From an uncultured Chloroflexia bacterium (lineage in GTDB: Bacteria > Chloroflexota > Anaerolineae > CG2-30-64-16), in the NCBI GenBank assembly GCA_963810095.1, contig CAWEMM010000013.1, forward strand, positions 32,001 through 96,000: a stretch of 64,000 nt of DNA. Direction: 5' to 3'. Below are positions 5,961-37,317 of the stretch, piece after piece. Position numbers and translations under genes: made by a program. A model generated the notes under the pieces. That model saw only the letters and a program-made list of their open reading frames with translations. It did no database searches and was not told the DNA's origin. Position 1 is the first letter of the stretch. Every line of letters starts with the position of its first letter.

Positions 5961-5963
5961 CGC

Positions 5964-15865: not shown

Positions 15866-15900
15866 TGGCGTCCGTATGTCACTGAGGCAAGGAGGTCGTA

Positions 15901-19085: not shown

Positions 19086-19093
19086 GGAGTAAC

Positions 19094-22830: not shown

Positions 22831-22841
22831 GTTTACAGTTC

Positions 22842-22900
22842 GCAAACACCAAGGCAGCAAGACACGAGGCGAAAGCTTCGTGTCTTGAGCCCTCGTGTTA
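22842..22900. repeat. Palindromic element with ~9-nt periodicity (family C)
   Basis: ACACCAAGGCAGCAAGACACGAGG-cgaaag-CTTCGTGTCTTGAGCCCTCGTGT. Confidence 0.5.
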
Positions 22901-22925
22901 ACCCGTCTCACTCGAGGCTTCACCC

Positions 22926-24566
22926 ATGACCGCTCCATTACAGGTTTCACGTGCCGAGATCCGCCGGACCGCTCAGCAAGGGCTGGGCTTTGATCACCTG
23001 CGACCGGGCCAACAGCCGGTTATCGAGGCCGTGCTGGCCGGGCGGGACACCCTCGCAGTCATGCCCACGGGGTCCGGCAAGTCTGCGATCTATCAGATTG
23101 CAGGGGCGCTGATCCCGGGTGCGACGCTGGTGGTATCGCCCTTGATCGCGCTGCAGAAGGACCAGCTCGACGCGCTGGCACAGGGCGACGTGGGCGAAGC
23201 GGCCGCGTTGAACTCGGTCATTGGGAATTCGGAGCGCGAAGAGGCCCTGGCCGACATGGAGGATGACCGGCTGGAGTTCATCTTCATGGCGCCGGAGCAG
23301 TTCAGTAATGAAGAAACCCTGCGGCGCCTGGAGCAAAACCCGCCGTCCCTCTTCGTCGTCGACGAGGCGCACTGCATCAGCGAGTGGGGCCATGACTTCC
23401 GGCCCGACTACATGAAGCTGGGCGCGGTGATCGAGCGTTTGGGCCACCCGACGGTCCTGGCCTTGACTGCGACGGCTGCCCCGCCCGTGCGGCGCGAGAT
23501 CATCGAGCGGTTGGGCATGCATGAGGCACGGATCGTCGTGCGGGGATTCGACCGGCCGAATATCTGGCTGGGCGTCGCCACCGTGCAGGATGAGAGTGCG
23601 AAGGAGAAGGCGCTCATCAAGCGGGTGGTGGCGGCCGAGAAGCCGGGCATCGTCTACGTGGCGACCCGCAAACACGCGTCCGAGGTAGCGGCCAAGCTGG
23701 GCGAGGTCGGGGTGCGGTCGGAGTTCTACCATGCCGGCCTGAGCCCCAAGGAACGCGAGCGCGTTCATGACGCATTCATGGCGGATGAGATCGAGGTGAT
23801 CATCGCGACGATCGCGTTCGGCATGGGGGTGGACAAGCCAAACGTGCGCTTCGTGTTCCACTATGACATCAGCGAATCGGTCGATTCCTACTACCAGGAG
23901 ATCGGCCGGGCTGGGCGCGACGGACTTCCGGCCCAAGCACTGCTGTTTTACTGTCCCAACGACCTGGGTTTGCGCCGTTTCTTCGCCTCCAGCGGGGTAA
24001 TCGACGAGGAGCAGGTTCGCCGGGTCTACGACTTCATTCTGCTTAACAACGGAAGGGCGACGCAGGAGGAGCTCGCGGACAGCGTTGCGCTCTCCAAAGC
24101 GAAACAGTTGGCCGTCCTCAATCGTTTAGTTGACGCAGGGGCGCTGGATAGGCTGCCGGACGGTGCGTACGAGGCGACGAACAGTGCCGAGACGAAGATC
24201 GAGCAGTTGCTGGCCGAGGCAGTCGGCGCGCAGGAGCGACGCCGCGAGTACGACCGGTCGCGCGTCGACATGATCCGCAGCTATGCGGAGATGAGTGGGT
24301 GCCGGCGCCAGCATTTGCTCGCCTATTTCGGCGAGGAACTGCCCGAGCCGTGCGGCAACTGCGACAACTGCGCGAGTGGCATTGCGAAGTCGAGCGATGC
24401 GAGCCAGCCGTTTGCGACGGGCAGCCGGGTGCAGCACAGGCGCTGGGGGCCCGGCCAGGTCCTGCAGTACGAGGGCGAGAACGTCGTCGTGTTATTCGAT
24501 AGCGTGGGCTATAAGACTTTATCCGTTTCATTGGTGATGGAGCAGGGCTTATTAGCTCAGGCGTAA
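22926..24566 (+). CDS. recQ: RecQ-family ATP-dependent DNA helicase
   Basis: 'MPTGSGKS', 'VDEAHCISEWGHDFRPDY', 'ALTATA', 'QEIGRAGRDG', Zn site 'CRR...CGNCDNC'. Confidence 0.93.
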   Translation: MTAPLQVSRAEIRRTAQQGLGFDHLRPGQQPVIEAVLAGRDTLAVMPTGSGKSAIYQIAGALIPGATLVVSPLIALQKDQLDALAQGDVGEAAALNSVIGNSEREEALADMEDDRLEFIFMAPEQFSNEETLRRLEQNPPSLFVVDEAHCISEWGHDFRPDYMKLGAVIERLGHPTVLALTATAAPPVRREIIERLGMHEARIVVRGFDRPNIWLGVATVQDESAKEKALIKRVVAAEKPGIVYVATRKHASEVAAKLGEVGVRSEFYHAGLSPKERERVHDAFMADEIEVIIATIAFGMGVDKPNVRFVFHYDISESVDSYYQEIGRAGRDGLPAQALLFYCPNDLGLRRFFASSGVIDEEQVRRVYDFILLNNGRATQEELADSVALSKAKQLAVLNRLVDAGALDRLPDGAYEATNSAETKIEQLLAEAVGAQERRREYDRSRVDMIRSYAEMSGCRRQHLLAYFGEELPEPCGNCDNCASGIAKSSDASQPFATGSRVQHRRWGPGQVLQYEGENVVVLFDSVGYKTLSVSLVMEQGLLAQA

Positions 24567-24613
24567 GCCGGGCGAGCCAAAGCCCGTGAGCGAAAAGGTA
24601 GGGGGGCGCCGCG

Positions 24614-24988
24614 GTGGAGACATGGGAAATCTGGTATCCCGAAGGTGCGGCAGCGGGTGTTCCGTTCTTGCGCAGCAAGATCGATCCCGCCCAGGCTGTG
24701 TTGGTCCATTCGGCGCCGCCCACTCTTGAGGTGATCGTGACCGGCGCCGACGGTGTGCGGTTGGCGAAGGGCGAGAACCTCGAGCGAACGATGGAGAGCC
24801 CCATGTGCCTGCTCGTGCGCGACGGCGAGCAGATCGTGCGGCGGGATCTTTGGCCTGGCGAGTCTCACGTGGGTGCAGTGATTCTGCTGCCCGGCGGCGA
24901 GGCGGGCCGGCTGGTGGAATGGTGGCATGCGCCCGATCAGTCAGAGTGGCGCTGGCGGGTGGAGTTTTATAACAAGCGGTCTTCATAG
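24614..24988 (+). CDS. Hypothetical protein
   Basis: GTG start after a G-rich RBS, co-oriented in the operon; Trp-rich 'ILLPGGEAGRLVEWWHA..SEWRWRVEF'. Confidence 0.6.
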   Translation: METWEIWYPEGAAAGVPFLRSKIDPAQAVLVHSAPPTLEVIVTGADGVRLAKGENLERTMESPMCLLVRDGEQIVRRDLWPGESHVGAVILLPGGEAGRLVEWWHAPDQSEWRWRVEFYNKRSS

Positions 24989-25061
24989 CAATCATGAGCG
25001 AAGTGGGTGGTCCCGCCCCAGCAGCGGTGGGGCCTGTTGGTTTGACTAAAGGAGTAAGACG

Positions 25062-26133
25062 ATGGGAATAAGAGGTTTCTTTACGACGCTCGGGCTGGGG
25101 CTCGGAGCAATGTATTTCATGGACCCGGAACGTGGTGAGGAGCGCCGAAACGAGGTTCGCAACCAGGTCATGCAGCTCCGCGATCAGGCGCAGACTGTGT
25201 GGAACGAAGGGAGCGACGACCTCGCGAACCGGGCGAAGACCTTGCGCAACAAGGCGGGCCAGGCGCCGTCCGACGTCATGCAGGCCGGCAAGGATGCGAT
25301 GAGCCAGGGCCGGCGGGGCATGAGTCTGCGCCTCGACATGGAGCGGCCCGGAGACCGCTTGCTAACGATGAGCGGCGGCGGCCTGCTGGCGCTGTACGGC
25401 CTGGTGCGCGGCGGCATCCTTGGGAAGGCCGCGCTGCTTGCAGGCGCGAACTACGTTGCCAAGGGGCTCACACAGAAGGACATGCTGGGCGACGCAGTGA
25501 GCAAGATGCGCGCCAGCCGCAGCACGGGCGGCGGGATTGAGTTCCGCAAGGCCGTTCGCATCAATGCGCCCGTGGAGGATGTCTTCACGTTCTGGCAGAA
25601 CTACGACAACTTCCCGCGCTTCATGTCGCATCTCAAAGAGGTGCACGACCTGGGCGAAGGCCGGTCACACTGGGTTGCCAACGGCCCCGCCGACCTGCCG
25701 GTTGAGTGGGATGCGCTCATTACCGAGCTTCGCCCCGAACCGGGTGATTGCCTGGGAAAGCGTGCCGGGTTCGGACGTGTACAACGCCGGACGCGTGCGC
25801 TTCGAGTCGGTCGACGGCGCAACGCGCATCGACGTGTTCATGACTTACAACCCGCCCGGGGGCGTCGCGGGCCATGCCATCGCCGCGCTCTTCGGAGCCG
25901 ATCCGAACACGGCAATGGACGACGACCTCCTGAAGCTCAAGTCGCTGCTCGAGCAGGGCGGCACTGAAACCATGAGGCCCGGCCGGTCCTATCGCCGCAC
26001 AAAAGGCGACGGCGGCATGGGCTCGATGGAGGATGAGATCAGCGGGGGCAGCGCCGCCGCGGGCTTCAACGGCGGCGAGAACGCACCCTCGCGGCGGAAG
26101 CCGGGAAGCGACGTGCCGGGCGCCGGCAGTTGA
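25062..26133 (+). CDS. SRPBCC (polyketide cyclase/START-like) protein with a YtxH-like N-terminus; frameshift near 25735
   Basis: 'GAMYFMDPERGEERR'; 'NFPRFMSHLKEV..GRSHWV...VEWDA' continuing as 'NRVIAWES...GRVRF..YNPPGG'. Confidence 0.82.
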
Positions 26134-26263
26134 GGCGCCCCTCAGCCGCGGCCGTCTGCGAAGACACGAACGGCGGAAACGAATGGGCGCAAGAGCGCCT
26201 TCGGTCCGTCCGTTCGCAGGATTCGTGGATGGCCGCGCTTCGCAAGTCGAAGGCAGCACGACC

Positions 26264-27433
26264 TTGACCGCAAACATTGCAGCGGAGCCCAACCCGCACA
26301 ACGGCGACGAAGTCCTCGGCCAGCATGCCAGCGTGGCCGAAGGCGGCGCGGTCATCGTTCCGGGCCTTGTCTACAGCAGCGATACGTTGCCCGGCATCCG
26401 CCGGCGGCGCTGCGGCAAGGGCTGGTGCTACATTGGACCGGATGGAAAGCACATTAAGGAGGCTGAGACGCTGGCCCGCATTCGCGCCCTCGCGATTCCG
26501 CCGGCATGGTCTGAGGTCTGGATTTGTGCGGACCCTAACGGCCACATTCAGGCGACCGGCCGCGACGCAAAGGGCCGGAAACAGTATCGCTATCACCCCA
26601 GCTGGAGCGAGCATCGCAGCAATGCGAAGTTCGGGCGCGTCATCGCTTTCAGTCAGGCTCTTCCACACATTCGCGAGCAGGTCGAGAAGGACCTGCGCCG
26701 CCACGGCCTGCCACAGGAGAAAGTCGTTGCCGCAGTCGTGCGCCTCCTCGAAACGACCTACATCCGTATCGGGAACAAGGAATACGCGCGCCAGAATAAA
26801 TCGTTCGGCCTGACCACCTTGCGTGATCGCCACGTGGACGTCGCGGGCACGACTCTGCGCTTCAAATTTGTGGGCAAGAGCGGCCAGAAGCACGCGATCG
26901 AACTGCACGACCGGCGGATGGCGCGGATCGTCAAGATGTGCCGGGACCTGCCCGGGTACGACCTGTTTCAGTACATCGACGACGAGGGCGTGCGCCAGAC
27001 GGTCGATTCAGGAGCGGTCAACGCCTACCTGCGCTCGATTGCCGGCGAAGACTTCAGCGCGAAGGACTTTCGCACTTGGGGCGGAACGCTGCTCGCCGCA
27101 CGTGAGTTGCGCCAGATGACACCGCCGACATCCCAGCGCGAGGTGAAGCGCACGACGAACCAGGTGATCCAGCGGGTAGCCAGCATGCTGGGGAACCGGC
27201 CGGCAACCTGCCGTAAGTACTACGTCCACCCCGCGATCCTGGAAGCATACGCCGACGGCACGCTGTTTGAGGCTGTGGCGCAGGTGCGAAAGGAGGGGTA
27301 CGAGGACGCTCCGCACGATTTGGACCTGGAGGAGGCCGCGCTGCTGGAACTGCTGGAACGCAAGCAGGCGCAGGGCTACGCCGCCGATCCGCAGGCGCCG
27401 GATCCCGTGCCCGAGGACTGTGAAGAGTCTTGA
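26264..27433 (+). CDS. Bacterial DNA topoisomerase IB (start uncertain; ATG at 26183 also possible)
   Basis: 'AIPPAWSEVWIC..NGHIQATGRDAKGRKQYRYH', 'RIGN', 'FVGKSG', 'KDFRTW', 'LGNRPATCRKYYVHP' (catalytic Tyr). Confidence 0.92.
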   Translation: MTANIAAEPNPHNGDEVLGQHASVAEGGAVIVPGLVYSSDTLPGIRRRRCGKGWCYIGPDGKHIKEAETLARIRALAIPPAWSEVWICADPNGHIQATGRDAKGRKQYRYHPSWSEHRSNAKFGRVIAFSQALPHIREQVEKDLRRHGLPQEKVVAAVVRLLETTYIRIGNKEYARQNKSFGLTTLRDRHVDVAGTTLRFKFVGKSGQKHAIELHDRRMARIVKMCRDLPGYDLFQYIDDEGVRQTVDSGAVNAYLRSIAGEDFSAKDFRTWGGTLLAARELRQMTPPTSQREVKRTTNQVIQRVASMLGNRPATCRKYYVHPAILEAYADGTLFEAVAQVRKEGYEDAPHDLDLEEAALLELLERKQAQGYAADPQAPDPVPEDCEES

Positions 27434-27566
27434 TGCCGCAATCGGCCCTAAACAGAAGAATCAAAGAAAGGAAGGTCCGCGTAGGAACCTTCGAGCTGCT
27501 TTGGTTCTTGCTTTCTTTCTGTACACCCGGTCTCTCGCAATGGGCTAAACTGGAAGGAGTAGGCAA

Positions 27567-28448
27567 GTGAACTGGACGCTGCTCGTTAACCGGATCTCCG
27601 AGCAACCTTGGCTTGACAGCGGCGCGGATGCCGTGAAGGGCGCGGTGCATAAGTTCTACGAAGGACTGGGATCGGCCTCGGTCCCCGTCCGCAACTTCCT
27701 GCATGGCGTCTGGCTGGGCCACCCGCTGCACCCAGTCATCACGGACATCGTGGTTGGGGCGTACACTGCTACCGCCGTCCTCGACGTGGCCGAGGCGATC
27801 GGCGGCGAGAAGCAGATTGCACCTGCGAACGACATCGTGCTCGCCACCGGCATCGCAAGTGGCTTGAGCGCGGCCGCGGCCGGGATCACCGATTGGCATG
27901 TGCTGAAGGGCACGCCGAAGCGGATCGGCTTCCTGCACATGCTGTTGAATCTGTCTGCCACCGTCCTGTACATCTTCTCATTCATCGCGCGGAAGTCGGG
28001 CAATCGCGGGCTGGGCCGCGCCCTGGGCTGGACCGCGTACGGCACGATCTTTGGCGGCGCGTACCTGGGGGGACACCTGGTGTTCGTCAACAACATCGGC
28101 GTGGACCATGCGGCCGAATGGGAACAGACCGACGAGTACCGCCAGGTGATGCCCGAGGCCGATTTGGCGCAGGGCGAGCTGCGCAAGGTGATGCTGAACG
28201 AGACTCCGGTCGTCTTGATTCGCCATGGGCGGGTAATCACCGCCATGTCTGACAGCTGCGCGCACGAAGGGTGTTCCCTGGCGGAGAGGGGCGAACTCGA
28301 CGACGACACGATCCGCTGCACGTGCCACGGCTCGTGCTACCGGCTGGCCGACGGCCAGGTGCTCGAGGGTCCCTCGGCCCATCCCCAGCCTGTCTACGAC
28401 GTGCGCGTGCGAGGCGGCCAGATCGAAGTGCGCCAGCCGAGCGAGTAG
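27567..28448 (+). CDS. DUF2231 membrane domain + Rieske [2Fe-2S] protein
   Basis: 'LHGVWLGHPLHP', 'GGHLV'; Rieske motif 'CAH...CTCHGS'. Confidence 0.87.
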   Translation: MNWTLLVNRISEQPWLDSGADAVKGAVHKFYEGLGSASVPVRNFLHGVWLGHPLHPVITDIVVGAYTATAVLDVAEAIGGEKQIAPANDIVLATGIASGLSAAAAGITDWHVLKGTPKRIGFLHMLLNLSATVLYIFSFIARKSGNRGLGRALGWTAYGTIFGGAYLGGHLVFVNNIGVDHAAEWEQTDEYRQVMPEADLAQGELRKVMLNETPVVLIRHGRVITAMSDSCAHEGCSLAERGELDDDTIRCTCHGSCYRLADGQVLEGPSAHPQPVYDVRVRGGQIEVRQPSE

Positions 28449-28462
28449 GACTCAAAGGGCCG

Positions 28463-28561
28463 GAACGGGACGCAGATTAAACTGATGGAACTGATCGACA
28501 TGATCCTTTTGCAGGAAGATCAATCCGGATCAGTCAGATCAGTTCAATCTGCGTCCTATCC
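28463..28561. repeat. 9-nt-periodic palindromic element, family A, copy 3
   Basis: GGGACGCAGATTAAACTGATGGAACTGATC...GATCAGTCAGATCAGTTCAATCTGCGTCCTATCC. Confidence 0.78.
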
Positions 28562-28599
28562 CTGATCACCCGACGGGAAGTACTGGACGAAGGGAAGTA

Positions 28600-29651
28600 T
28601 TGATGAAGTTATTGCCGGTTAGTCAGCAGGTTGTCGTCCTGTTCGGCGCATCGAGCGGGATCGGGCGGGAGACCGCGCTGCAGTTTGGGGCCCGCGGGGC
28701 AAAGGTTGTCGTTGCCGCTCGGCGGAAGGACGCACTGGAGTCGCTCGCCGAGGAGATCCGCCTGGCAGGAGGCGTCTGCCTACCTGTTGTGGCCGAAGCG
28801 ACGGACTTTGCGCAGGTCAAGGCGGTTGCCGAAAATGCCGCGAAGCATTTCGGCCGCATCGACACGTGGGTGCAGTTGGCCGCAGTGTCGCTCTATGCGC
28901 CCTTCGAGCAGCACGAACCCGAGGAGTTCCACCGGATTATCGACGTGAACCTGGTCGGCGCGGCCTATGCGGCGCGGGCCGCACTCCCGCACCTCAAGGC
29001 TTCGGGCGGCGGCGCCTTGATCATGGTCACGTCCATCGAGTCGGTGCAGGCAATCCCGTTCCATGCCGCCTATGCCGCCTCCAAGCACGGGTTACGGGCG
29101 ATGGCCGAGGTTATCCGCATGGAGCTGGCGGCCGAGGGCGCACCCGTGAGCGTCACCAATGTCATGCCCGCATCGATCGACACGCCGTTCTTCGAGGTGG
29201 CCAAGACAAAACTCGGCGTCAAGCCGCGCGGCGTGCCTCCGGTCTATGAACCCGACGTGGTGGCGCGCACGATCCTGTTTGCGGCGGAGCACCCTTCCGC
29301 GACCTGGCTGCGGGCGGAGCGGGCAAGAGCTTCATCTGGCTCAAACGTTTGTCGCCTTCGGCCGCAGACCGCTTGATGGCGTGGGCCGGGTTCACGATGC
29401 AGAAGACAGACGAGCAGAAGGGTCCGGACGCGCCGAACAACCTGTTCGAGCCGGTCGAAGGCGGCCCGGTAGGCCCACAGGGCTCGCTGAGTAAGGAAGC
29501 GCGTTCGTGGAGCGTATACACGTGGTGGGAAACCCATCCGGTGGCGCACTGGGCCGGCCGGGTGCTGGCGGCGGCCGGGCTGGGCGCGCTGGTATTCCGG
29601 GTTTGGGGCTCGAAGACAATGCGGGGTTGGAGCGCGAAGCCGCGCAGGTGA
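28600..29651 (+). CDS. Short-chain dehydrogenase/reductase; frameshift near 29300
   Basis: 'GASSGIG', 'YAASK'; C-terminus ('PNNLFEPV', 'SVYTW') in ORF 29349..29651. Confidence 0.87.
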
Positions 29652-29857
29652 CGAAGCCGAGCGCGTAGAATCTATCCGAAAAATGCTCTGGCCGGTCTCG
29701 TACGACAACTTGGCTGGCGCCCAGGCCAGACGGGGCACGGTCAGAGACCGGCCCCAGCTAATCCTCGGATAGATACTTAGCGTTCGGGCCGCTCGCGGAC
29801 ACGGGTCGGGGTGGCGCCCTAATCTTTGCGCGAGGGGAACGAGAAGGAGTAAGTGCA

Positions 29858-30772
29858 GTGATTCGATTTCGAAAACAAGGCGAAAACGAGGGCTGGGTGA
29901 ATGTGGGCAAGACCGAACGCCAGCTGTCCGCGGTGCTGGGCGTCCTGCTGCTGGGCTCGCTGCTGTTGAAACGGGGCGAGGGTGTGTGGCGGTGGGTCCG
30001 CCTTGCGTTGGGCCTGGTCATGGTGGAACGGGCGGCGACCGGCTTCTGCACCCCCTATAAGCTGCTTGGCATTACCAGTGTCGAGCCCGAGGAGGGCCGG
30101 GTGGTGAGCCTGCCGCTGAAGCGCGGCATCGAGATCGAGCGCTCGGTGACCGTGAACAAGCCCCGTGACGAGGTGTACGCCTTCTGGCGCGACCTCGCCA
30201 ACCTGCCTCGTTTCATGCGCCATCTGGAGTCGGTGACCGAGGCGGGCGCGCGCTCGCACTGGGTGGCCAAGGCGCCGCTGCAGGTGGAATGGGACGCCGA
30301 GATCACCGCAGAACGTCCGGGTGAGCTGATCGGGTGGCGGTCGATCGAGGGGTCGACGGTGCGTAATGCGGGCAGCGTGCGTTTCAAGGACGCGCCGGGC
30401 GGCAAAGGCACGGAGGTGCATGTCTACCTGGAGTATCAGCCCGTTGGCGGCCCGGCGGGGGCAGCCGCGGCCAAGCTCATCAAGCAAATCACCCTGACGC
30501 AGATCAGGATGGACATGGGCCGGTTCAAGGCCATCCTGGAAGCCGACGAGGCGCCTACGACCGAAGGTCAGACGTCCGGACGGGAGAAGCTGAAGCCGGG
30601 TGACCAGGGCGTACACCAGCAGTTTGAGCGCCGCAAGGACAAGGTAAACCTGGCCTCGGCCGAGTCCTTCCCGGCGAGCGACTCGCCCTCATGGACAGGC
30701 GGAGTGGTTGGCGCGGACGAAGAGCTGCGCGACCAGGGCAGTCTGCCCACACAGGGAGGGCTGCAAGAATGA
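29858..30772 (+). CDS. DUF2892 + SRPBCC protein with a C-terminal 'ESFPASD' motif
   Basis: 'NVGKTER', 'TGFCTPY', '[18 protein letters not shown]', '[15 protein letters not shown]'. Confidence 0.85.
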
Positions 30773-31941
30773 AGGCGCTTTGTTGGTGGGGGCCCGGTGT
30801 CGTCAAGGTCGAGACGGTGCCCGATCCGCAGATCATTAACCCGACGGACGCCATCATCCAAGTGACGGCGGCCGCGGTGTGCGGGTCTGACCTGCACCTG
30901 TACGACGGCTACATCCCTTCCGTCGAGAAGGGCGACGTTCTGGGACATGAGACCGTCGGCGTCGTGGTCGATGTAGGGCCCGAGGTGCACAATCTGCATC
31001 TGGGCCAGCGGGTCGTGGTGCCGTTCCCGATCTCGTGCGGCCGGTGCTGGTATTGCCAGAACGGCCTGTGGTCGCTGTGTGACAACAGCAACCCGAACGC
31101 ATGGATGGCCGAGAAGATGTGGGGTTATTCACCCGCCGGCATCTTCGGGTACTCACACATGCTCGGCGGCTATGCGGGCGGGCAGGCCCAGTATCTCCGC
31201 GTGCCCTTTGCCGACGTCGGCCCGCTGCCCCTGCCCGACACGCTGAGCTCGGAGGCCGCAGTCATGCTGGCCGACGTCTTTCCGACCGGCTACCAGGCCG
31301 CTGAGTACGCAAACATCCAGCCGGGCGACACAGTGGCAGTGTTCGGCTGCGGTCCAGTCGGCCAGTTTGCCATCCGCAGTGCTTTCATGCTCGGGGCCGA
31401 GCGGGTGATTGCGATCGATCGCATCGCCGAGCGGTTGCGGATGGCACGCGAGGGCGGGGCCGAGGCGGTGAACTACGAGAATGTGGAGATCATCGAGGCC
31501 CTGCGCGAGATGACCGGCGGCCGGGGTCCCGATTCGTGCATCGAGGCCGTGGGCATGGAGGCGCACGATATGGGATTCGAGGGCGCCGTCGACCGGGTGA
31601 AGCAGGCGGTGCGCCTCGAGACCGGCCGGCCCCACGCACTGCGAGCGGCGATTGTGTCGGTTCGCAAGGGCGGCACGGTTTCGATCCCCGGCGTGTTTGG
31701 CGGCCTGGTCGACAGCATCCCGATGGGCGCGGTGGTCAACAAAGCCCTGACCCTGCGCAGCGGGCAGACGCACGTGCATAAGTACCTGCGCCCGCTGCTG
31801 CGCCGGATCGAGGCAGGTGAGATCGATCCTGCGTTCGTCGTGACGCACCGCCTGAGCCTTGACGAGGCCCCGAAGGCCTACGACATCTTCAAGCACAAGG
31901 AAGACGAGTGCATCAAGTGCGTGCTGAGTCCGCAGATGTAA
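30769..31941 (+). CDS. Zn-dependent alcohol/formaldehyde dehydrogenase
   Basis: 'CGSDLHLY', 'GHE', 'CGRCWYC..GLWSLC', 'GCGPVG'; ATG overlaps the upstream TGA. Confidence 0.92.
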
Positions 31942-31996
31942 CGGTGCATCACGCACGAAACCTGGTTTCTAGCACGTATAGATGAGGGAGGAAGAA

Positions 31997-32284
31997 ATGA
32001 GCAATCCGAGTTTGGCGAGGGCAATGAATTACGAGTTCAAGGCGCAAGGGGACGAGAACCGCGAGAAGGTGCACCGCGAGCGGCCCGACGTGGACGACGT
32101 AACGATCACGCCGAGCCAGGCGGAGGGCGACCGTGATACCGTGGAGCGCGACCTGGGCGACCCTGGCGACGACAATTTCGGCCGCGAGGGTGGCGGTCAG
32201 GGTCAGCGCCAGCCCACTCCGAGCCAAGCCGAGGGCGACCGGGCGGAGATCGAGCGCGACCTGCGCGAGAAGAGTAGCGGCTGA
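31997..32284 (+). CDS. Small acidic hydrophilic protein with two 'TPSQAEGDR..(V/I)ERDL' repeats
   Basis: RBS GGAGGA before ATG 31997; internal repeat; co-oriented with the island. Confidence 0.65.
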   Translation: MSNPSLARAMNYEFKAQGDENREKVHRERPDVDDVTITPSQAEGDRDTVERDLGDPGDDNFGREGGGQGQRQPTPSQAEGDRAEIERDLREKSSG

Positions 32285-32297
32285 CAAGCGTGAGATG

Positions 32298-32397
32298 GAA
32301 TAGAACGCAGATTCAACTGATGCAACCGATCTGAACTGATCTCCTTGAAAAAAGATCAGTCTAGATCAGTCTGATCAACTCGATCTGCGTCCTATTC
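32298..32397. repeat. 9-nt-periodic palindromic element, family A, copy 4
   Basis: GAATAGAACGCAGATTCAACTGATGCAACCGATC...GATCAGTCTGATCAACTCGATCTGCGTCCTATTC. Confidence 0.8.
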
Positions 32398-32417
32398 GAC
32401 GTTCAATGAAGGAGTGA

Positions 32418-32879
32418 GTGAGCATGGCAGACCCGATTACCAAGACGATCATTGTGAAGACCGATGCGGCGACGGCCTACAACCTGTGGGCCAATTTCGA
32501 AAACTTCCCGAGCTTCATGAAGTACATCGAACATGTGACCAAGTTGGGCCCCAACATGAGCAAGTGGGAGATGAGCGGGCCGCTCGGCAAGAATGTCGAG
32601 TGGACGGCCGAGACGACGAAGATGGAGCCCAACCGGCGCATCGCGTGGAACACGAAGGACAACGCCAGCACGGTAACGACCAGCGGCGAGGTCATCTTCA
32701 CTCCGCTGGCCGACTTCCAGACCGAAGTCACAGTGACGTTGAAGTACGACCCGCCGGCCGGCGCGCTGGGCGAGGCGGTCGCGAAGATCTTCGCGGATCC
32801 GGCGGGGCGGCTCGATGAGGACCTGAAGAACTTCAAGAACTACGCCGAGGGCCGCCCGACCTCGGGACAGAGGGCGTAG
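32418..32879 (+). CDS. SRPBCC-family protein
   Basis: 'WANFENFPSFM', 'VEWTAE', 'RIAW', 'YDPPAG', 'DLKNFK'. Confidence 0.88.
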   Translation: MSMADPITKTIIVKTDAATAYNLWANFENFPSFMKYIEHVTKLGPNMSKWEMSGPLGKNVEWTAETTKMEPNRRIAWNTKDNASTVTTSGEVIFTPLADFQTEVTVTLKYDPPAGALGEAVAKIFADPAGRLDEDLKNFKNYAEGRPTSGQRA

Positions 32880-32888
32880 AGCAGTGAA

Positions 32889-32919
32889 GGCATGGGGTCG
32901 GGCGACACGACCCCATGCC
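32889..32919 (+). terminator. Hairpin closing the stress island
   Basis: GGCATGGGGTCG-loop-CGACCCCATGCC, 12-bp stem. Confidence 0.6.
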
Positions 32920-33104
32920 ACTTGCGTTCGCAGCCCGTGTTCTTCGCGCGTTTCGTGATCTTCGTGCACCTCCACGTCCTCGCGTTTCAAAACGCATGCC
33001 GTTGCGCGTCATCCTGCATCGGACTCTTGGCGAGCGAGTTGCTCCCGCCTGACCCCCGTGTTACACTGGCATGATAGCCGTTCTCATCGCACCCTGGGGT
33101 TCTC

Positions 33105-36100
33105 ATGTCCAATTCGACGATGCCCTACAACTATCGTCGCTCGTCGCGACCCGCTCCGGGTTGGCTCCGCCGAATAGTGCCTTCCCGTTTCGTGGATACA
33201 GTGGAATTGCCGCGTCCCCTGGGCTGCGGCGCCCCCGACGGCCTGCTCGATCCTGAGTTCAACTACGAGTATGTGATTGCGCTCTCCGACGAGTTCCGGT
33301 TTGTCCACGAGCCCACCGCCTTCCTGGGCGCCGACGTGTTGACGGATCACCGTTGGAGCACCGATTGCTTCGTCGGGCGCGAGCGCGAGGTCCGCCTGCT
33401 GACACAGCGAATTCTCCTCTCCCACGGGGGCGCATTTCTGGTCACCGGCTACCGTGGCGTCGGCAAAACCTCCTTTGTGAATCGCGTTGTCCAGCAGGTC
33501 AAGCTTGCATGCGAATCGGAGTGGGGCCGGCGGCGGTTTGGCTCGCTCGAAGTGGTGGACGTGCACCTGAACCTGGCGCGTGAGGTCACCCCGGGCGAAC
33601 TGATGCACCATGTTATCCGGAGCATGTACAGCAGCCTTGCAGATCGCGGCGTGCTGCCCCTGCTCGACCGGACTACGCGTGAGGCCCTGGTGCTTGCCTT
33701 CCGCCGTACATCCATTAATCTCACGCAGCGCTACATGAGCGCGCACGAACGGTCGATCGGTATCAGCCAGATTGGCATCCCCCTCAAGGGCCTCGCCGCA
33801 CAGGTCGGTCTTACGGACTCGCACTCCAAGGGCGAAGAACTCGACATGGCCTACTTGCCCTTCGACGACAAAGCCGCCGAATATGACCTGATCCAACTGG
33901 CATCGAAAATCTCGCAGGGCTACACGGGACGGTCATCGCTCGCCCGCCGCATTCTTAACGCCATTTCGGGCGTCGAACCCCCGCGCACGGCAGCTTAAAG
34001 TAATTTTCATCTTTGACGAAATGGACAAGGTCGAGGCGGTCGACAAGAAGGACCGTCTGCAAGCCGTCGACGAAATCCTGCGCGTGCTAAAGAACCTGTT
34101 CACGACTTCGGGCCTCACCTTCATCTTTGTCGGCGGGCAGGACCTGCATGAGCGGTGGCGAGACGATCTGGGTCGGGGCGACAGCGTCTACGAGAGTGTG
34201 TTCGCCTATAACCAGTATCTTCCGGCGATGTGGGACGATGTAGGGCGTCTGTGCGGCAATTGGGTCAGCGAATGGGAGGTCGGGGCGAACCGAGACGTAT
34301 ACGACCAGTTCGTTCGGTTCTTGACCTTTCAGGGGCGCGGGCTGCCGCGCGAGCATTTTGCGCGGCTTCAATCAACACGTCCACTGGGGCGAGCGTTCGC
34401 CATTTCTCGCCTTCTCGCCCCTCGAGCGGCGCCGCGTGAAGTTCTTCGCGGGGCTGCAGGCCGCGCTCGATGAACGGGAGAAGGAACTGCTGGGCGAAAC
34501 GTGGGAGGTAGTGCCCGGGGAGAGCATCGACAAAGCGCGCCTCGCGATCTACTACCTGACGGACTGGGTGTTGCAGCGTGGCGAACGGCCCTTTACCGCC
34601 GCGGATCTCGCAACCGCCTGTCGTGGCCTCAGTCCGAAGATCGCGCCGGCCGCAGAGTTGGTCGACGAGGTGGTCGACGGTCTCATTGCCACGCTCCTTG
34701 CCATCAAGTACCTGGAGGAGATCGTTCCACAGCGCGACCAGGAGGTGGTCGTCGCGAGTCCCTCCACGCTGCCCCCGCCGAGAGTATCGCGTTCCTAAGC
34801 CGCGAATCATCGAGATGGGCAGCCCGCTGGATGCTTCCGGTGAAGAGGGAACGGCATGGCAAGAGGGAACCGAGGGCAGGCGTCGTGTCGCACACTACCG
34901 GCTGGGTGACCGCTTGGGGATGGGCGGCATGTCGGAGATTTGGCGCGCGTGGGATGAACGGACCGGCCAGCAGGTCGCCATCAAGCTGCTCAACTTCCCC
35001 GATTCGTCGGCAGCAAGACGCTTCGGCCAGGAGGGCGAACTTCTTTTCAGGCTGCGCCATGACAACATTGTCCGCTGCTACGATTACAGCAACGAGCCAG
35101 GAAAGCAGTACATCGCCATGGAACTGGTCGACGGCTTAACGCTCGGGGAAATGGTCCGCTCGCTCGGCCGGCTGACGTTCGACGAGGCGGTGGCGGTGAT
35201 GCGGCCGGTCCTCAACGCTGTCGCGTACCTACACCGCAACCGCATCGTTCGTCTCGATCTTAAAACCCACAACATTATGATTGATCGCCGTGGAAGGGTT
35301 TGCCTGATCGACTTGGGGATCGCTCGGCGGCTCGATGCAACGGTCACATCGACCGCGATTATCGGCACCCTCTACTACATGGCGCCGGAACAGGCTGAGG
35401 GCAGCCAGGCCGACGGCCGGGCCGATATCTACGCCGCGGGCGTGGTGCTGTATGAGCTGACAACCGGCGCCTTTCCGCATGCCATACCGCCCGAGCTACC
35501 CGACGCCATGCCGCGCCTGCTCGACGCGCTAATACATGGGACTCCGAGGCCCCTAGAGAGCTCAGGGCCGACCTGTCGCCGGCCTTCGAAGCAGTTGTGA
35601 TGAGATGCCTGGCCAAGCGGCCAGACGACAGGTACGAAAGTGCCGAAGAGTTGCTCGGCGCGCTCCCCCGGCCCAGCGGGTCGATCTCGGTGCGCTGGTT
35701 GCCCGGGCACTGGAGCTGCAGCGGAAGCAGAGCGAGCGCGAGAGTGACATAACTGAGCCGCTGGTCTCACGTCACCGGCCGCAGAAGCAGTCGGCTCCCG
35801 TCTCAGCCACAACTGTCTACGTCAGCGGCGACACCGTCCCGCTGGCCCCGCGCCCTGCCTTCAGCGGACCATCATACCAGCCGCCCCCATCAGACATCCC
35901 AACCGAAGTGATCGCACCCGCGGCTCGTGTAGATACGGGTTCGGCGACCGTTATCGTGGCCCCACAGTTGATAGCCCCGTCAGGGGGAGGAGCCGTCCTC
36001 CTGATGACCGCCGGTCCTCGAGTGGGCCAGCTATTCCCCCTGGTCCGGCATGGTGCGACCCGGTTCGGGCGCAGCGCCGAGAACGAGATATCGATCGACA

Positions 36101-36279
36101 GCGAGAAGTGGTCGCGCTATCATGCGCTGATCGAGGAACTGGCCACCGGGTATCAGATCAGCGACCTGAACTCGTTCAACGGCACGCTGGTTAACGGCGA
36201 ACGCGTCACGTCGACGATGCTCTCGAGCGGCGACAGGATCGAGATTGGCGACGTAGTGTTCAAGTTCCGCGCCGCTTAG
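33105..36279 (+). CDS. P-loop NTPase (KAP-like) - Ser/Thr protein kinase - FHA fusion, broken by about five frameshifts (intact gene with sequencing errors, or pseudogene)
   Basis: Walker A 'GYRGVGKT'; Walker B 'VIFIFDEMDK' across the shift at ~33985; kinase 'LGMGGMS/VAIK/DLKTHN/DLG/MAPE/DIYAAG'; FHA 'FGRS...SRYHA...DLNSFNGT'. Confidence 0.78.
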
Positions 36280-36283
36280 CGCT

Positions 36284-37317
36284 TCAGACTGCCTCCACGC
36301 CAAACGTGAGCTCGTACTTCTTGCTCTCCCCCGGCTCGAGTTCGGTCAGAACGCCCTTCGCCCTGGCATCCGCACGTCCTTCCATCGCGCTGGAATTGAC
36401 AGGTTCCACGCCCAGCACGTACGAACCCTGGCCCATCATCTTCCACTGCACGAGGTAGGGCAGCGTGCCGGCGCTGAAGCGCAGCGTAGCCGCCAGCCCG
36501 GCTTCCCGGTTGGCGATGTGAGCCGTGGCGTAGCCGTCGGCTGCCGGCTCCACTTCCATGATGTAAACATGTTCGCTGAAGCCGGCGGTGGGAGGGCGCG
36601 ATCTGCGTATGCTCGCCCAGGTGCTGTTCCGCGAGGGGCGTGCGGGGGATCACCCGCCGCTTGGGGAAGTCGAGCTCGGTCGCCGGGACTGATGAGCGGG
36701 AAACCGAGGTTGAAGTGGTACATGATCATGTGCGGCTGGCGGTTCCAACCCTCGTTCGTCACCTCGTCCTCAATGCGGATCGAAGATGACCCCAGCGCGG
36801 TTCTGATCCGCCGGCGCAGCACCAGGTTCTCGCCGAAGAGACGGGTCTGTCGCACGGTGCCTGTGATCTCGAGCCGGTAGTCGTCGCCGTCCCAATAGGT
36901 CTGGTAGCCCACCTGCTCGGCCGGCAGGTTGCCGACACGCCCGTGCAACCCGAACTCCTCGCCGTTCTCCTCAGAGGGCGAGGCGAACTGGTCGAGCCCA
37001 CACGTGACGAACAGGCCACCCCCGAAGGTGCGCAGCCAGCGCAACCCTTCCGGCTCGTAGAAGGCGCCGTGGGCGAAGCCGCCGGGCGAGTTCCAGGTCA
37101 GCGACTTGCCGTTGAACGTGCAGGGGCCGATGTCAAGACTGCGGCCCGCCAGCACGTCGAAGGTGAGGCCGGATCCGGTCCAAACGTTGAACGCGCGCAC
37201 CCCCGCGCTGCGCCCATCGTCGTAGCTGATCGCACGGATGCCTGCAAGCTGATTCATGCTGCCGGTCAGCTGGCGGAGCTGCTCAGGTGTCCACTGGCGG
37301 CCGAAGAGGGTTGGCAT
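36284..37317 (-). CDS. Aldose 1-epimerase-like protein (DUF4432); frameshift(s) near 36600-36670
   Basis: 'WLRTFGGGLFVTCGL', 'GLHGR', 'MYHFNLGFPL'; C-terminus 'QWKMMGQGSYVLGVEP' in another frame. Confidence 0.85.

What the first reader, a model, noticed from the sequence alone, without database searches (positions are those of the whole stretch)
33105..36279. Hidden ~1050-codon P-loop NTPase - Ser/Thr kinase - FHA fusion: candidate one-gene sensor-kinase conflict/defence system
Seen: five apparently unrelated ORFs join into one reading path by single-base shifts (~33985, ~34350, ~34790, ~35555, ~35668). The missing kinase C-lobe 'RELRADLSPAFEAVVMRCLAKRPDDRYESAEELL' lies in an unlisted frame at ~35556-35665. 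Domain order: Walker A GYRGVGKT, Walker B VIFIFDEMDK, 'LKNLF..SGLTFIFVGG', helical region, kinase, Pro-rich linker, FHA. There is no signal peptide or obvious TM helix. Established: KAP/STAND-class NTPases often act as sensors in phage exclusion (e.g. PifA, Avs), Ser/Thr kinases can trigger abortive infection (e.g. Stk2), and FHA binds phosphothreonine. Inference: a cytoplasmic NTPase switch, kinase and phospho-reader in one chain. It sits alone at the edge of the stress island. I do not recognise this architecture as a characterised system.
Basis: partly seen in the sequence, partly recalled or inferred. Interest (0 to 1): 0.8.

Follow-up and report, generated by a model that had tools for sequence, protein, structure and literature searches.

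The report
Frameshift-riddled NTPase–kinase–FHA gene, probably intact
The five "hidden" frame breaks are most likely errors of a long-read assembly, and the gene behind them is one roughly 1,050-residue protein that joins an ATPase switch, a Ser/Thr kinase and a phosphothreonine reader; this family is widespread but unstudied, and a role in phage defence is possible but not shown.

Summary
Four intact homologs align collinearly to 33105-36279 through frames 0>1>2>0>2>1, which means five frame breaks.

The breaks are most likely assembly indel errors, not gene decay:
- rpoB, rpoC, secA, gyrA, a uvrA copy and two dnaE copies of the same MAG are also split across frames.
- The adjacent DUF4432 gene is split too.
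- The only short-read contig that spans a break lacks one base at 33989, and removing that base restores the frame.
- 89 of 94 family-invariant residues are kept.

The protein is an AAA_16/KAP/ORC-like P-loop NTPase, then a catalytically complete non-RD Hanks kinase, then an FHA domain. By my count, 111 of the 120 listed proteins matching ORF1 carry both Pkinase and FHA. The NTPase module has 476 cluster representatives at E<=1e-30 and is almost always kinase-linked (45 of 47 variant members).

The gene is rare in the host's phylum: 1 of 300 other genomes. It has no conserved neighbour. Context is mixed: a type I R-M operon in the closest homolog, a signalling cluster in another, and stress/metabolic genes in the window.

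Six literature searches and three curated libraries name no such system. A defence role remains unproven; I put it at about 0.25.

The parts
33105..36279 (+). Whole gene: about 1,050 codons read through six segments and five frame breaks. Order: P-loop NTPase, Hanks kinase, FHA.
   Evidence: Collinear tblastn of 4 of 4 intact homologs. Alignments A1 and A2. 89 of 94 invariant residues kept.
33105..33989 (+). Segment 1 (frame 0). N-terminal conserved motifs FRFVHEP (33294-33314) and FVGRERE (33369-33389), Walker A GYRGVGKT (33447-33470), and a long insert in the P-loop domain.
   Evidence: AAA_16 E 2.5e-7.
33989..33989 (+). Break 1: one extra base in the window, inside a GG pair.
   Evidence: Short-read contig X3 record 15 covers 33919-34070 with 0 other differences and leaves out this base. 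Removing it in silico runs ORF1 on into ORF2.
33990..34350 (+). Segment 2 (frame 1). Walker B VIFIFDEMDK (34000-34029), sensor-1-like LKNLFTTSG (34087-34113), GRGDSVYESVF (34171-34203) and the GxP-like GRGLPR (34333-34350).
   Evidence: These columns are invariant or nearly so in A1 and A2.
34349..34354 (+). Break 2 (frame 1 to 2), in a GC-rich GCGCG stretch. Not covered by any laid contig.
   Evidence: The family motif continues with ILRGFNQ at 34355-34375.
34355..34770 (+). Segment 3 (frame 2). C-terminal helical and winged-helix-like half of the NTPase module.
   Evidence: Alignment A2. AF2 model of the L003 homolog has helices plus a beta-hairpin at residues 410-421.
34765..34785 (+). Break 3 (frame 2 to 0), at or near a CCCCC run. 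Not covered by any contig at 95% likeness or more.
34785..35552 (+). Segment 4 (frame 0). Kinase N-lobe and catalytic core: Gly loop GMGGMS (34917-34934), VAIK Lys (34974-34991), catalytic loop RLDLKTHN (35250-35273, non-RD), DLG (35310-35327) and APE (35373-35390).
   Evidence: Pkinase E 2.9e-44. Invariant K, D, K, N and D of A1 are kept.
35550..35554 (+). Break 4 (frame 0 to 2): one base missing at a CCCC run. Contig X2 record 13 ends at 35551, so it is not informative.
35555..35665 (+). Segment 5 (frame 2). End of the kinase C-lobe (RCLAKRPDDRY, 35603-35635).
   Evidence: tblastn frame-3 HSP 35552-35668 in 3 of 4 homologs..
35665..35668 (+). Break 5 (frame 2 to 1): one base missing at a CCCCC run. 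Not covered by any contig.
35668..36057 (+). Segment 6a (frame 1). Pro-rich variable linker holding the family-invariant Thr (SDITEPL, 35743-35763).
   Evidence: This Thr column is invariant in 40 of 40 sequences of A1 amid variable flanks and is kept in the window.
36058..36279 (+). Segment 6b (frame 1). FHA domain with the G-R (36061-36078), S-x-x-H (36112-36126) and N-G (36178-36198) motifs. The stop codon is at 36277-36279.
   Evidence: FHA E 1.8e-16, Yop-YscD_cpl E 9e-14..

Best explanation
There is one gene at 33105-36279, and it is most likely intact in the living organism. The five frame breaks are indel errors, or minor variants, of a long-read metagenome assembly.

The gene encodes a cytoplasmic protein of about 1,050 residues with three linked modules:
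1. An N-terminal P-loop NTPase of the AAA_16/KAP/ORC-Cdc6/STAND type. It has Walker A, Walker B, a sensor-1-like motif, a GxP-like motif and helical plus winged-helix-like domains.
2. A Hanks-type Ser/Thr kinase with all catalytic residues but no Arg before the catalytic Asp (a non-RD kinase).
3. A variable linker with one invariant Thr, followed by a canonical FHA phosphothreonine reader.

Proposed mechanism (inferred, not shown): NTP binding or hydrolysis in the NTPase module acts as a switch. It changes conformation or drives self-assembly and so activates the kinase by proximity. A non-RD kinase does not need activation-loop phosphorylation. The kinase phosphorylates the invariant linker Thr. 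The FHA domain binds it in cis or in trans, which latches or multimerises the active state, and may also recruit substrates. The output is Ser/Thr phosphorylation of cellular targets.

The gene is a rare, horizontally scattered, self-contained accessory module. Whether it serves stress or regulatory signalling or phage defence is open; I put defence at about 0.25-0.3.
For: The breaks are assembly artefacts (shown):
- 8 of 12 long housekeeping gene copies examined in the same genome are split across frames. These are rpoB, rpoC (pieces in three frames with internal TGAs), uvrA on C1 (3 ORFs), secA, gyrA on C2, a gyrA/parC-like copy on C14, dnaE on C2 (4 ORFs) and dnaE on C6.
- Three are unsplit (ileS, dnaE on C7, uvrA on C6) and one is ambiguous (uvrA on C5).
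- The adjacent DUF4432 gene is split into profile positions 2-185 and 221-304.
- The genome is a 16-contig MAG at 88.5% completeness.
- The only break covered by an independent short contig shows one base fewer there and no other difference in 151 nt. Removing that base fuses ORF1 and ORF2.
- No other indel appears in the roughly 1.4 kb of the gene covered by contigs at 99% identity or more.
- 89 of 94 invariant columns of 40 homologs are kept, 3 carry conservative changes, and 2 fall on break junctions. There are no stops inside the segments.

One fused protein (shown):
- By my count, 111 of the 120 listed proteins matching ORF1 carry both Pkinase and FHA.
- 22 of 26 genomic loci hold it as a single ORF of 950 aa or more.

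Modules (shown):
- Pfam domains and invariant catalytic residues.
- The NTPase fold matches ORC1/Cdc6/ORC4 (E 3e-6), NB-ARC of NRC2 (2e-5), archaeal ORC2, TnsC and RdrA (6e-3). Profile hits to ORC4 and Cdc6 point the same way.

Coupling of the modules (shown):
- The NTPase module has 476 representatives at E<=1e-30.
- 45 of 47 variant-architecture members carry Pkinase.
- The same triad recurs in shuffled orders: kinase-NTPase-FHA in G152 and NTPase-FHA-kinase in L029.
- The linker Thr is invariant in 40 of 40.
Against: - Only 1 of 5 breaks could be tested, with a single contig at depth 2, possibly from the same sampling campaign.
- The target's break density (5 in 3.2 kb) sits at the top of the range seen in the controls. 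Only rpoC is comparable, and ileS and a 1,214-aa ORF in the same window are unbroken. One or more breaks could therefore be real.
- The NTPase class is not settled. Foldseek TM-scores are about 0.2, Pfam AAA_16 is at or just below its cut-off, and nSTAND hits are sub-threshold.
- Switching, self-assembly, autophosphorylation of the linker Thr and FHA binding are all inferred. None was tested.
- The invariant Thr lies in a region that is hard to align.
- Context gives no consistent clue to the biological role.
Confidence: 0.6

Rival explanations
1. Dedicated single-gene anti-phage (abortive-infection type) system. The STAND-like NTPase senses a phage cue and assembles, and the kinase then phosphorylates host or phage proteins to stop infection. 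This shares the molecular logic of the best explanation but commits to a defence role.
For: - The closest intact homolog (L003) lies inside a type I R-M operon: hsdR, PIN, hsdS, the gene, two unknown ORFs, hsdM, all on one strand.
- L029 has a type IIG R-M enzyme next to it.
- Among the 93 nearest neighbours from 24 loci there are 3 phage integrases, 2 PIN and 2 DUF3800 proteins.
- Distribution is very patchy: 0 true matches in 7 same-genus and 17 other same-family genomes with ORF1, and 1 of 300 other genomes of the phylum with the profile.
- The gene is self-contained, with no conserved partner.
- One family member carries EAD7, a conflict-system adaptor domain.
- The NTPase resembles NB-ARC and RdrA.
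- Single-gene kinase defence systems exist; the PD-T4-6 models match the kinase domain.
Against: - The window has no defence or mobile genes within about 12 kb on either side.
- No family exceeds 3 of the 93 nearest neighbours.
- 7 of 10 large neighbours have no PADLOC hit at 1e-20.
- G152's copy sits in a signalling cluster of kinases, receiver proteins and GAF/HAMP proteins.
- No copy was found on viral contigs.
- PADLOC matches only the generic kinase domain. The NTPase and FHA pieces have 0 hits.
- The module's partners are kinase, FHA, GAF, PP2C and zinc ribbons, not the varied nuclease or TIR effectors typical of defence STANDs.
- No matched control for neighbourhood enrichment was run.
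Confidence: 0.27
2. A real, decaying pseudogene. The five frame breaks exist in the organism's DNA and the protein is not made.
For: - There are five breaks in 3.2 kb, denser than in most control genes.
- The gene is an accessory gene that close relatives lack, so its loss would be tolerated.
- Four of the five breaks are unverified.
Against: - Essential genes of the same assembly carry the same kind of break.
- The one tested break is absent from a short-read contig.
- 89 of 94 invariant residues are kept and there is no in-segment stop. That is unexpected after enough time to collect five indels.
- All five breaks sit in or beside G/C runs or a GC-repeat.
Confidence: 0.1
3. Three or more separate genes (NTPase, kinase, FHA protein) that are adjacent and only appear to be one gene.
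For: the ORF listing shows separate ORFs with their own start codons. Split forms of the family exist elsewhere, for example FHA-NTPase without a kinase (P0028).
Against: - The breaks fall inside conserved domains: between Walker A and Walker B, inside the GxP motif, and inside the kinase C-lobe.
- The kinase ORF lacks its C-lobe.
- 22 of 26 loci hold the gene as a single ORF.
Confidence: 0.02

Closest known systems
STAND NTPases (NB-ARC/NACHT/AAA_16 type; bacterial Avs, bNACHT)
   Same: - A P-loop NTPase with Walker A and B, the FVGRxxE lead-in typical of AAA_16, and a GxP-like motif in the helical domain followed by a winged-helix-like domain.
- Foldseek hits to the NB-ARC of NRC2 and NRC1, E 2e-5 to 2e-4.
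- Fused to an output domain in one chain, with patchy distribution.
   Different: - No C-terminal repeat sensor (TPR, WD40 or LRR).
- The output is almost always a kinase rather than a varied set of effectors.
- Pfam nSTAND1 and nSTAND6 hits are sub-threshold.
- No hit of the NTPase part to any PADLOC model.
ORC/Cdc6 initiator-clade AAA+ ATPases
   Same: They are the best structural matches (ORC1, Cdc6 and ORC4 at E 3e-6 to 4e-4; archaeal ORC2 1w5t) and the best sequence-profile matches (ORC4 at 3e-3). JGI names some homologs 'Cdc6-like AAA superfamily ATPase'.
   Different: TM-scores are only about 0.2. There is a large insert between Walker A and Walker B. There is no replication context, and the module is fused to a kinase and FHA.
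KAP family P-loop NTPases (Pfam PF07693)
   Same: KAP_NTPase scores above Pfam's cut-off in some homologs: P0004 at 42.7 bits, P0002 at 25.9 and P0043 at 20.3, against a cut-off of 20. The P-loop domain carries a long insert.
   Different: The window's ORF1 has no KAP hit at E<=0.1. No TM helix was found in the window's copy (homologs not scanned), whereas a TM insert is the family's hallmark (recalled, not from a call).
Single-gene Ser/Thr-kinase defence proteins (PD-T4-6; Stk2; kinase parts of MAD6, PglW, MkoA)
   Same: A Hanks kinase domain. PADLOC PD-T4-6 models match the window's kinase ORF at E down to 5.6e-61.
   Different: The matches cover only the generic kinase domain. NCBIfam scores for MAD6 and PglW are far below their cut-offs. 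Those proteins are not known to me to have this NTPase or FHA (recalled). The PD-T4-6 and Stk2 papers were not read here.
NTPase + Ser/Thr kinase + FHA threat-sensing pathways (MoxR-vWA ternary systems; Esr pathway of Actinobacteria)
   Same: The same parts list: an NTPase, an S/T kinase and an FHA output whose Thr phosphorylation carries the signal. I read passages of PMC7159879 and PMC13622651.
   Different: Those are multi-gene systems built on a MoxR AAA+ ATPase and a vWA protein with a surface sensor. Here a different NTPase, the kinase and FHA are in one chain, with no vWA or MoxR partner.
PknK-type kinase-AAA_16-TPR (MalT-like) regulators
   Same: A Hanks kinase fused to an AAA_16 NTPase in one protein (recalled, not tested here). 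G152 also encodes a Pkinase-TPR(MalT-like) protein next to its copy.
   Different: The domain order is the reverse in the window's type. There are no TPR or HTH domains, FHA is added, and the kinase is non-RD.

Membership tests
Hanks-type (eukaryotic-like) Ser/Thr protein kinase, Pfam PF00069 | Score above Pfam's gathering cut-off | tested here: met
   ORF4 scores 151.9 bits against a cut-off of 31.7, E 2.9e-44. The profile's last 66 positions lie in the next frame.
Hanks-type (eukaryotic-like) Ser/Thr protein kinase, Pfam PF00069 | Catalytic residues: Gly loop, VAIK Lys, catalytic Asp/Lys/Asn, DFG Asp, APE | tested here: met
   GMGGMS, VAIKLL, RLDLKTHN, DLGIAR and YYMAPE are present and match the invariant K608, D699, K701, N704 and D717 of A1. 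The Arg of HRD is absent in the window (Leu); the A1 majority residue at that position is Asn, so the kinase is non-RD.
FHA domain, Pfam PF00498 | Score above cut-off, plus the pThr-binding Gly-Arg, Ser-x-x-His and Asn | tested here: met
   60.7 bits against a cut-off of 20.7. RFGRSA, SRYHA and NGTLVNG are present. G951, R952 and S966 are invariant in A1.
P-loop NTPase, AAA_16 (PF13191) | Score above Pfam's gathering cut-off | tested here: inconclusive
   The window's ORF1 scores 31.8 bits against a cut-off of 32.6, and that ORF is cut before Walker B. Homologs score 31.6-41.4 bits.
P-loop NTPase, AAA_16 (PF13191) | Walker A GxxxxGK[ST] and Walker B hhhhDE | tested here: met
   GYRGVGKT and VIFIFDEMDK. 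G98, G100, K101, D284 and E285 are invariant in A1.
STAND NTPase | GxP motif in the helical domain, followed by a winged-helix domain | tested here: inconclusive
   GRG[IL]PR is nearly invariant. The model shows helices and a beta-hairpin after it. That these are the STAND GxP and WH elements rests on recalled definitions and on Foldseek NB-ARC hits with TM about 0.2.
STAND NTPase | C-terminal repeat sensor (TPR, WD40 or LRR) | tested here: not met
   There are no repeat domains in the window's pieces or in the 6 homologs scanned; the kinase and FHA follow instead.
KAP NTPase (PF07693) | Pfam score above cut-off | tested here: inconclusive
   Met in homologs P0004, P0002, P0001, P0028 and P0043 (20.3-42.7 bits against a cut-off of 20). 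No hit for the window's ORF1.
KAP NTPase (PF07693) | Transmembrane helices inserted in the P-loop domain (definition recalled) | tested here: not met
   The highest 19-residue hydropathy mean is 1.17-1.52 in the window's own NTPase segments; homologs were not scanned.
ORC/Cdc6 AAA+ | Fold and sequence similarity to the initiator clade | tested here: inconclusive
   These are the top Foldseek hits (E 3e-6) but with TMq 0.22-0.23. ORC4 scores E 3e-3 by profile. The arginine finger and sensor 2 were not mapped.
Known anti-phage systems (PADLOC-DB 2.0) | A model that matches beyond the kinase domain | tested here: not met
   There are 0 hits for the three NTPase pieces and the FHA piece. In 3 of 3 full-length homologs, every one of the best 25 PADLOC hits shown aligns to the kinase region.
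Known anti-phage systems (PADLOC-DB 2.0) | Location in defence islands | tested here: inconclusive
   L003 is inside a type I R-M operon and L029 is beside a type IIG enzyme. Most of the 24 loci, and the window itself, show no defence gene among the nearest neighbours. No control set was run.
NCBIfam curated families | Any model above its cut-off | tested here: not met
   All hits in 4 full-length homologs are below cut-off and limited to the kinase and FHA parts. The window's three NTPase pieces have 0 hits.

The most novel reading that the evidence does not exclude
This is the founding example, once its frames are read through, of an undescribed class of single-chain immune sensors. An ORC/STAND-like NTPase detects an invader and assembles. 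It switches on a non-RD kinase, the kinase type that pattern-recognition receptors of plants and animals signal through (recalled). A built-in FHA and phospho-Thr latch makes the response all-or-none, leading to growth arrest or abortive infection. With about 500 clusters at 50% identity across soil and sediment phyla, it would be a widespread defence family missing from the copies searched here (PADLOC-DB 2.0 of 2023, NCBIfam 20.0, Pfam-A).
Probability: 0.22. Interest if true: 0.75.

Novelty: new variant of a known kind. Interest (0 to 1): 0.42.

Why it matters
There are two lessons.

The first is technical. In this MAG, apparent pseudogenes and "hidden" multi-frame genes are largely consensus indel errors. 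Annotation of the whole genome, and its 88.5% completeness figure, are affected. Any frameshift-based finding from this assembly should be discounted until it is polished.

The second is biological. Reading through the errors exposes a well-conserved but unnamed protein family. Its NTPase module has 476 representatives at E<=1e-30, found across Acidobacteriota, Chloroflexota, Cyanobacteria, Planctomycetota, Proteobacteria and others. The family hard-wires an NTPase switch to a non-RD Ser/Thr kinase, usually with an FHA reader and an invariant linker Thr.

Databases call these proteins just "protein kinase". If the NTPase gates the kinase, this would be a compact bacterial counterpart of NLR-plus-kinase signalling. 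It would also be a tractable model, in one polypeptide, for how nucleotide switches control Hanks kinases. If it defends against phage, it is a new single-gene system.

Tried and rejected
- A GC3-periodicity frame map of the window was too noisy to count frame breaks, so I dropped it in favour of homology controls.
- Counts of long stop-to-stop ORFs do not measure the error rate, because alternative frames stay open for more than 1,500 aa in this 65% GC genome (see rpoC).
- The promoter and terminator scan of 32800-36500 found no more than chance.
- The look-up of sequencing runs gave only small-share holders, 6-9% of words. Laid contigs cover about 43% of the gene and only one break. Uncovered parts say nothing.
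- Complex prediction with two copies of the NTPase module (residues 70-520 of the L003 piece, with alignment A2) returned 'no answer', score 0.00. It counts neither for nor against self-assembly.
- Local BLAST of L003's R-M genes against the flanks of the other loci found nothing.
- The viral-contig scan found no relative.
- The protein-atlas search returned only generic stand-alone AAA_22, AAA_16, KAP and Orc1-like ATPase clusters.
- Six literature searches found no description of this architecture. I read passages only of 10.64898/2026.10.19.760177, PMC7159879 and PMC13622651. All other papers I saw only as search listings.
- Supplementary tables were not available. Those of PMC7159879 could list such architectures.
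- I considered and rejected programmed frameshifting or an alternative genetic code. The breaks go in both directions, they lie inside domains, and the same kind of break occurs in rpoB and rpoC.

Full report

Yes. The ORF listing shows six + strand ORFs between 33105 and 36279, in frames 0, 1, 2, 0, 2, 1 (start mod 3).

I took ORF1 (297 aa) to the 5.8-billion-protein index, asking for longer proteins. It returned 145 hits at E<=0.001, of which 120 are listed. Most are 950-1,600 aa and the best is 48% identical. By my reading of the table, 111 of the 120 carry both Pkinase and FHA besides AAA_16 or AAA_22.

tblastn of four of them (P0001, P0002, P0006, P0043) against the window gives collinear HSPs through frames 1>2>3>1>3>2 in 4 of 4. 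The short fifth segment appears in 3 of 4. Three-frame translations and the family alignment place the breaks at these positions:
- about 33989
- about 34349-34354
- between 34765 and 34785
- about 35550-35554
- about 35665-35668

Three of the breaks need a base skipped and two need a base added. The kinase ORF covers only profile positions 1-197 of 263, and the rest lies in the neighbouring frame. There is no TM-like segment.

**2. Are the breaks biological?**

Most likely not. The genome is a 16-contig, 6.13-Mb MAG at 88.5% completeness.

I searched it with curated models of long universal genes. Of 12 gene copies, 8 are split across frames:
- rpoB: the last 137 profile positions lie in another frame.
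- rpoC: pieces in three frames, with TGA codons inside the matches.
- uvrA on C1: three ORFs.
- secA: two ORFs.
- gyrA on C2 and a gyrA/parC-like gene on C14: two ORFs each.
- dnaE-family copies on C2 (four ORFs) and C6 (two ORFs).

Three copies are unsplit (ileS, dnaE on C7, uvrA on C6) and one is ambiguous (uvrA on C5). Essential genes cannot be pseudogenes, so frame breaks are a property of this assembly, and they are clustered. The gene next door (DUF4432, 36284-37317, minus strand) is also split.

The only public data holding this DNA are small-share short contigs from sediment metagenomes. When laid on the stretch, those at 99% identity or more cover about 1.4 kb of the gene. They show a single indel: contig X3 record 15 (151 nt, depth 2, no other difference) lacks one base at 33989, which is exactly break 1. 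Removing that base in silico runs ORF1 on into ORF2. The other four breaks are not covered.

Finally, of the 94 columns that are invariant in 40 full-length homologs, the window keeps 89. Three carry conservative changes (Y>F, L>I, L>V). Two fall on break junctions. None of the six segments has an internal stop. All breaks lie in or beside G/C runs or a GC repeat.

I therefore put about 0.85 on the gene being intact in vivo and about 0.1 on a real pseudogene. The caveats are that one contig at depth 2 is thin evidence, and that the break density here (1.6 per kb) is matched among the controls only by rpoC.

**3. What is the protein?**

*NTPase module (about 33105-34770)*
- It starts with conserved FRFxHEP and FVGRxxE motifs, followed by Walker A, a long poorly predicted insert, Walker B and a sensor-1-like LKNLFTTSG.
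- Then come GRGDSVYESVF and a GxP-like GRG[IL]PR, and then helices with a beta-hairpin.
- Pfam sees AAA_16 and AAA_22 at or near their cut-offs. In several homologs KAP_NTPase scores above its cut-off.
- An AF2 model of this module from the closest intact homolog (L003 piece, 568 aa, alignment of 24 rows) has mean pLDDT 70.4.
- By Foldseek the model matches ORC1/Cdc6/ORC4 (E 3e-6 to 4e-4), the NB-ARC of NRC2 and NRC1 (2e-5 to 2e-4), archaeal ORC2, TnsC, PAB2304 and the RADAR ATPase RdrA (6e-3). All have low TM-scores of about 0.2.
- A profile search of PDB sequences gives ORC4 at 3e-3, then Cdc6 (6.8e-3) and chains 8hr7/8fnt labelled 'Archaeal ATPase' (0.01-0.03), of the same entry series as the RdrA chain 8hr8.
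- The two VIA-align libraries were unavailable.
- So this is an ORC/STAND-type AAA+-like switch module whose finer class is unsettled.

*Kinase*
- Pkinase scores E 2.9e-44.
- The Gly loop, VAIK Lys, catalytic Asp/Lys/Asn, DLG and APE are all present and are invariant in the family.
- The residue before the catalytic Asp is not Arg: Leu in the window, with Asn the majority residue in A1. This makes it a non-RD kinase.

*Linker and FHA*
- The linker is variable, but one Thr column is invariant in 40 of 40 sequences and is present in the window.
- The FHA domain scores E 1.8e-16 and keeps the Gly-Arg, Ser-x-x-His and Asn motifs.

**4. How big and how coherent is the family?**

A profile of the NTPase module searched against 1.84 billion representatives finds 2,615 proteins at E<=1e-3, 1,797 at <=1e-10 and 476 at <=1e-30.

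From the 150 listed I picked the 47 whose length or module position departed from the window's type, and scanned them with Pfam:
- 45 carry Pkinase, some of them two kinase domains (P0226).
- 8 carry FHA.
- 1 carries EAD7.
- 1 has a weak NACHT hit.

Other variants add N-terminal zinc ribbons or a C-terminal GAF plus PP2C phosphatase. Some permute the order: kinase-NTPase-FHA in G152 and NTPase-FHA-kinase in L029.

So this NTPase module is, in effect, a kinase-dedicated module, and FHA is a frequent third partner. The triad is kept while its order is shuffled, which argues that the three parts work together.

**5. Distribution and context**

A scan of one genome per species found 74 loci. About 30 hold full-length copies, in Acidobacteriota, Chloroflexota, Cyanobacteria, Planctomycetota, Proteobacteria, KSB1, Bacteroidota-like and Firmicutes MAGs.

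In the host's own lineage the gene is rare:
- With ORF1 as query there was no true match in 7 same-genus genomes and 17 other same-family genomes. The one hit, at 8e-4, covers only the P-loop.
- With the profile, 1 of 300 other genomes sampled from the phylum has it (1 of 244 high-quality genomes).
- No copy was found on viral contigs.

Clustering 461 flanking ORFs from 26 loci shows no conserved neighbour. Apart from the gene itself, every cluster spans at most 3 loci, and three of those six clusters are the near-identical Blastocatellia loci L006-L008.

I then scanned the 93 nearest neighbours (two on each side) from 24 loci, dropping L007 and L008 as near-duplicates. No Pfam family occurs more than 3 times. 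Peptidase_S9 and Phage_integrase occur 3 times each, and PIN and DUF3800 twice each.

Individual contexts diverge:
- L003, the closest intact homolog, has the gene inside a type I R-M operon: hsdR, PIN, hsdS, the gene, two unknown ORFs, hsdM, all on one strand.
- L029 has a type IIG R-M enzyme beside it.
- G152 has it in a dense signalling cluster: a second Pkinase-FHA protein, two receiver proteins, HAMP-GAF, MASE11-GAF and Pkinase-TPR.
- The window has SDR, SRPBCC (twice), Zn-ADH, YflT, YtxH, topoisomerase IB and a RecQ-like helicase upstream. DUF4432, a hydrolase, a methyltransferase and a desaturase lie downstream.

**6. Mechanism**

Shown:
- There is one chain.
- The NTPase, kinase and FHA motifs are all intact.
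- The kinase is non-RD.
- The linker Thr is invariant.
- The NTPase and kinase are linked almost without exception.

Inferred:
- Nucleotide-dependent switching or assembly of the ORC/STAND-like module activates the kinase by proximity.
- The kinase phosphorylates the linker Thr.
- The FHA domain binds it in cis or trans, acting as a latch or a multimeriser, and may recruit substrates.
- The PP2C-bearing variants would then carry their own reset.

None of these inferred steps was tested. The one computational test of self-association gave no verdict; it is reported only under Tried and rejected.

**7. Comparison with what is known**

- PADLOC matches only the kinase domain (PD-T4-6, mad6, MkoA, PglW). 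The NTPase and FHA pieces have 0 hits.
- NCBIfam has no model above its cut-off, and none at all for the NTPase pieces.
- Six full-text searches found no description of the architecture.
- The nearest concepts are STAND sensors with fused effectors, and multi-gene NTPase-kinase-FHA threat-sensing pathways: the MoxR-vWA systems (passages of PMC7159879) and the Esr pathway, where Thr phosphorylation of an FHA protein carries the signal (passages of PMC13622651). PknK-like kinase-AAA_16 regulators are also close (recalled).
- It fails the STAND criterion of a repeat sensor, and the window's copy fails the KAP criterion of a TM insert. I therefore file it as a new variant of NTPase-coupled kinases, not as a member of either family.

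**8. Verdict**

- The 'hidden gene' aspect is an assembly artefact.
- The underlying gene belongs to a widespread, unnamed and uncharacterised NTPase-kinase-FHA family.
- The defence interpretation is possible, with the R-M embedding in the closest homolog, the patchiness and the self-containment in its favour. It is not supported in the window and is contradicted by a signalling context elsewhere. I put it at about 0.25.
- Interest is moderate at 0.42. A specialist would not be surprised by another multidomain Hanks kinase, but the obligate NTPase-kinase coupling, the non-RD kinase and the invariant linker Thr next to an FHA domain give a concrete, testable model.

Noticed in passing
window 36284-37317 (- strand): The DUF4432 gene next door is split into two overlapping ORFs: 36436-37317 (profile 2-185) and 36284-36559 (profile 221-304). 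This is another frame break within 1 kb of the target.
   Followed up: partly
G000 C14:146935-155374; C1:73454-76467; C6:1029095-1031513; C2:334164-336576; C2:152126-155272; C6:1013104-1016189: rpoB, rpoC, uvrA, secA, gyrA and two dnaE-family genes of this MAG are split across frames. rpoC lies in three frames with internal TGAs. The whole assembly needs polishing, and any 'pseudogene' call from it is suspect.
   Followed up: yes
window 20831-32879: A run of general-stress-type genes lies upstream. It holds a YflT-domain protein (20831-22549), YtxH+SRPBCC (25062-25967), SRPBCC+YgaP-TM (29858-30772) and SRPBCC (32418-32879). A RecQ-like helicase (22926-24566), a bacterial topoisomerase IB (26033-27433), DUF2231-Rieske, an SDR and a Zn-ADH are interspersed.
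   Followed up: partly
window 25062-26133: The SRPBCC domain of ORF 25062-25967 stops at profile position 63 of 126, and an overlapping ORF in the next frame (25537-26133) has no Pfam hit. This may be another assembly frameshift.
   Followed up: no
L003:13158-16461: Two ORFs (354 and 565 aa) with no Pfam hit lie between the NTPase-kinase-FHA gene and hsdM, inside a type I R-M operon that also holds a PIN protein. The L003 protein also has a 428-aa N-terminal extension with no Pfam hit. These are candidate further passengers of the R-M locus.
   Followed up: no
L006:4527-8765, L007:10001-14275, L008:10001-14205: In three Blastocatellia MAGs, a 456-474-aa ORF that also matches the family lies directly upstream of the 1,135-1,145-aa gene. 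It could be a tandem partial paralog or a split N-terminal part.
   Followed up: no
L081 (G152:C30:58000-77999), 1249-19759: The only other carrier found in the host's phylum has its permuted copy (kinase-NTPase-FHA, 9446-12382, minus strand) in a same-strand cluster. The cluster holds a second Pkinase-FHA protein, two receiver proteins, HAMP-GAFx5, MASE11-GAF, zinc-ribbon-TPR, TPR-SH3 and Pkinase-TPR.
   Followed up: partly
window 44665-47304 (+): An 879-aa ORF whose frame agrees with the GC3 map has no Pfam hit at E<=1e-4.
   Followed up: no
P0226 and similar proteins: Some family members carry two kinase domains flanking the NTPase module (kinase-NTPase-kinase).
   Followed up: no
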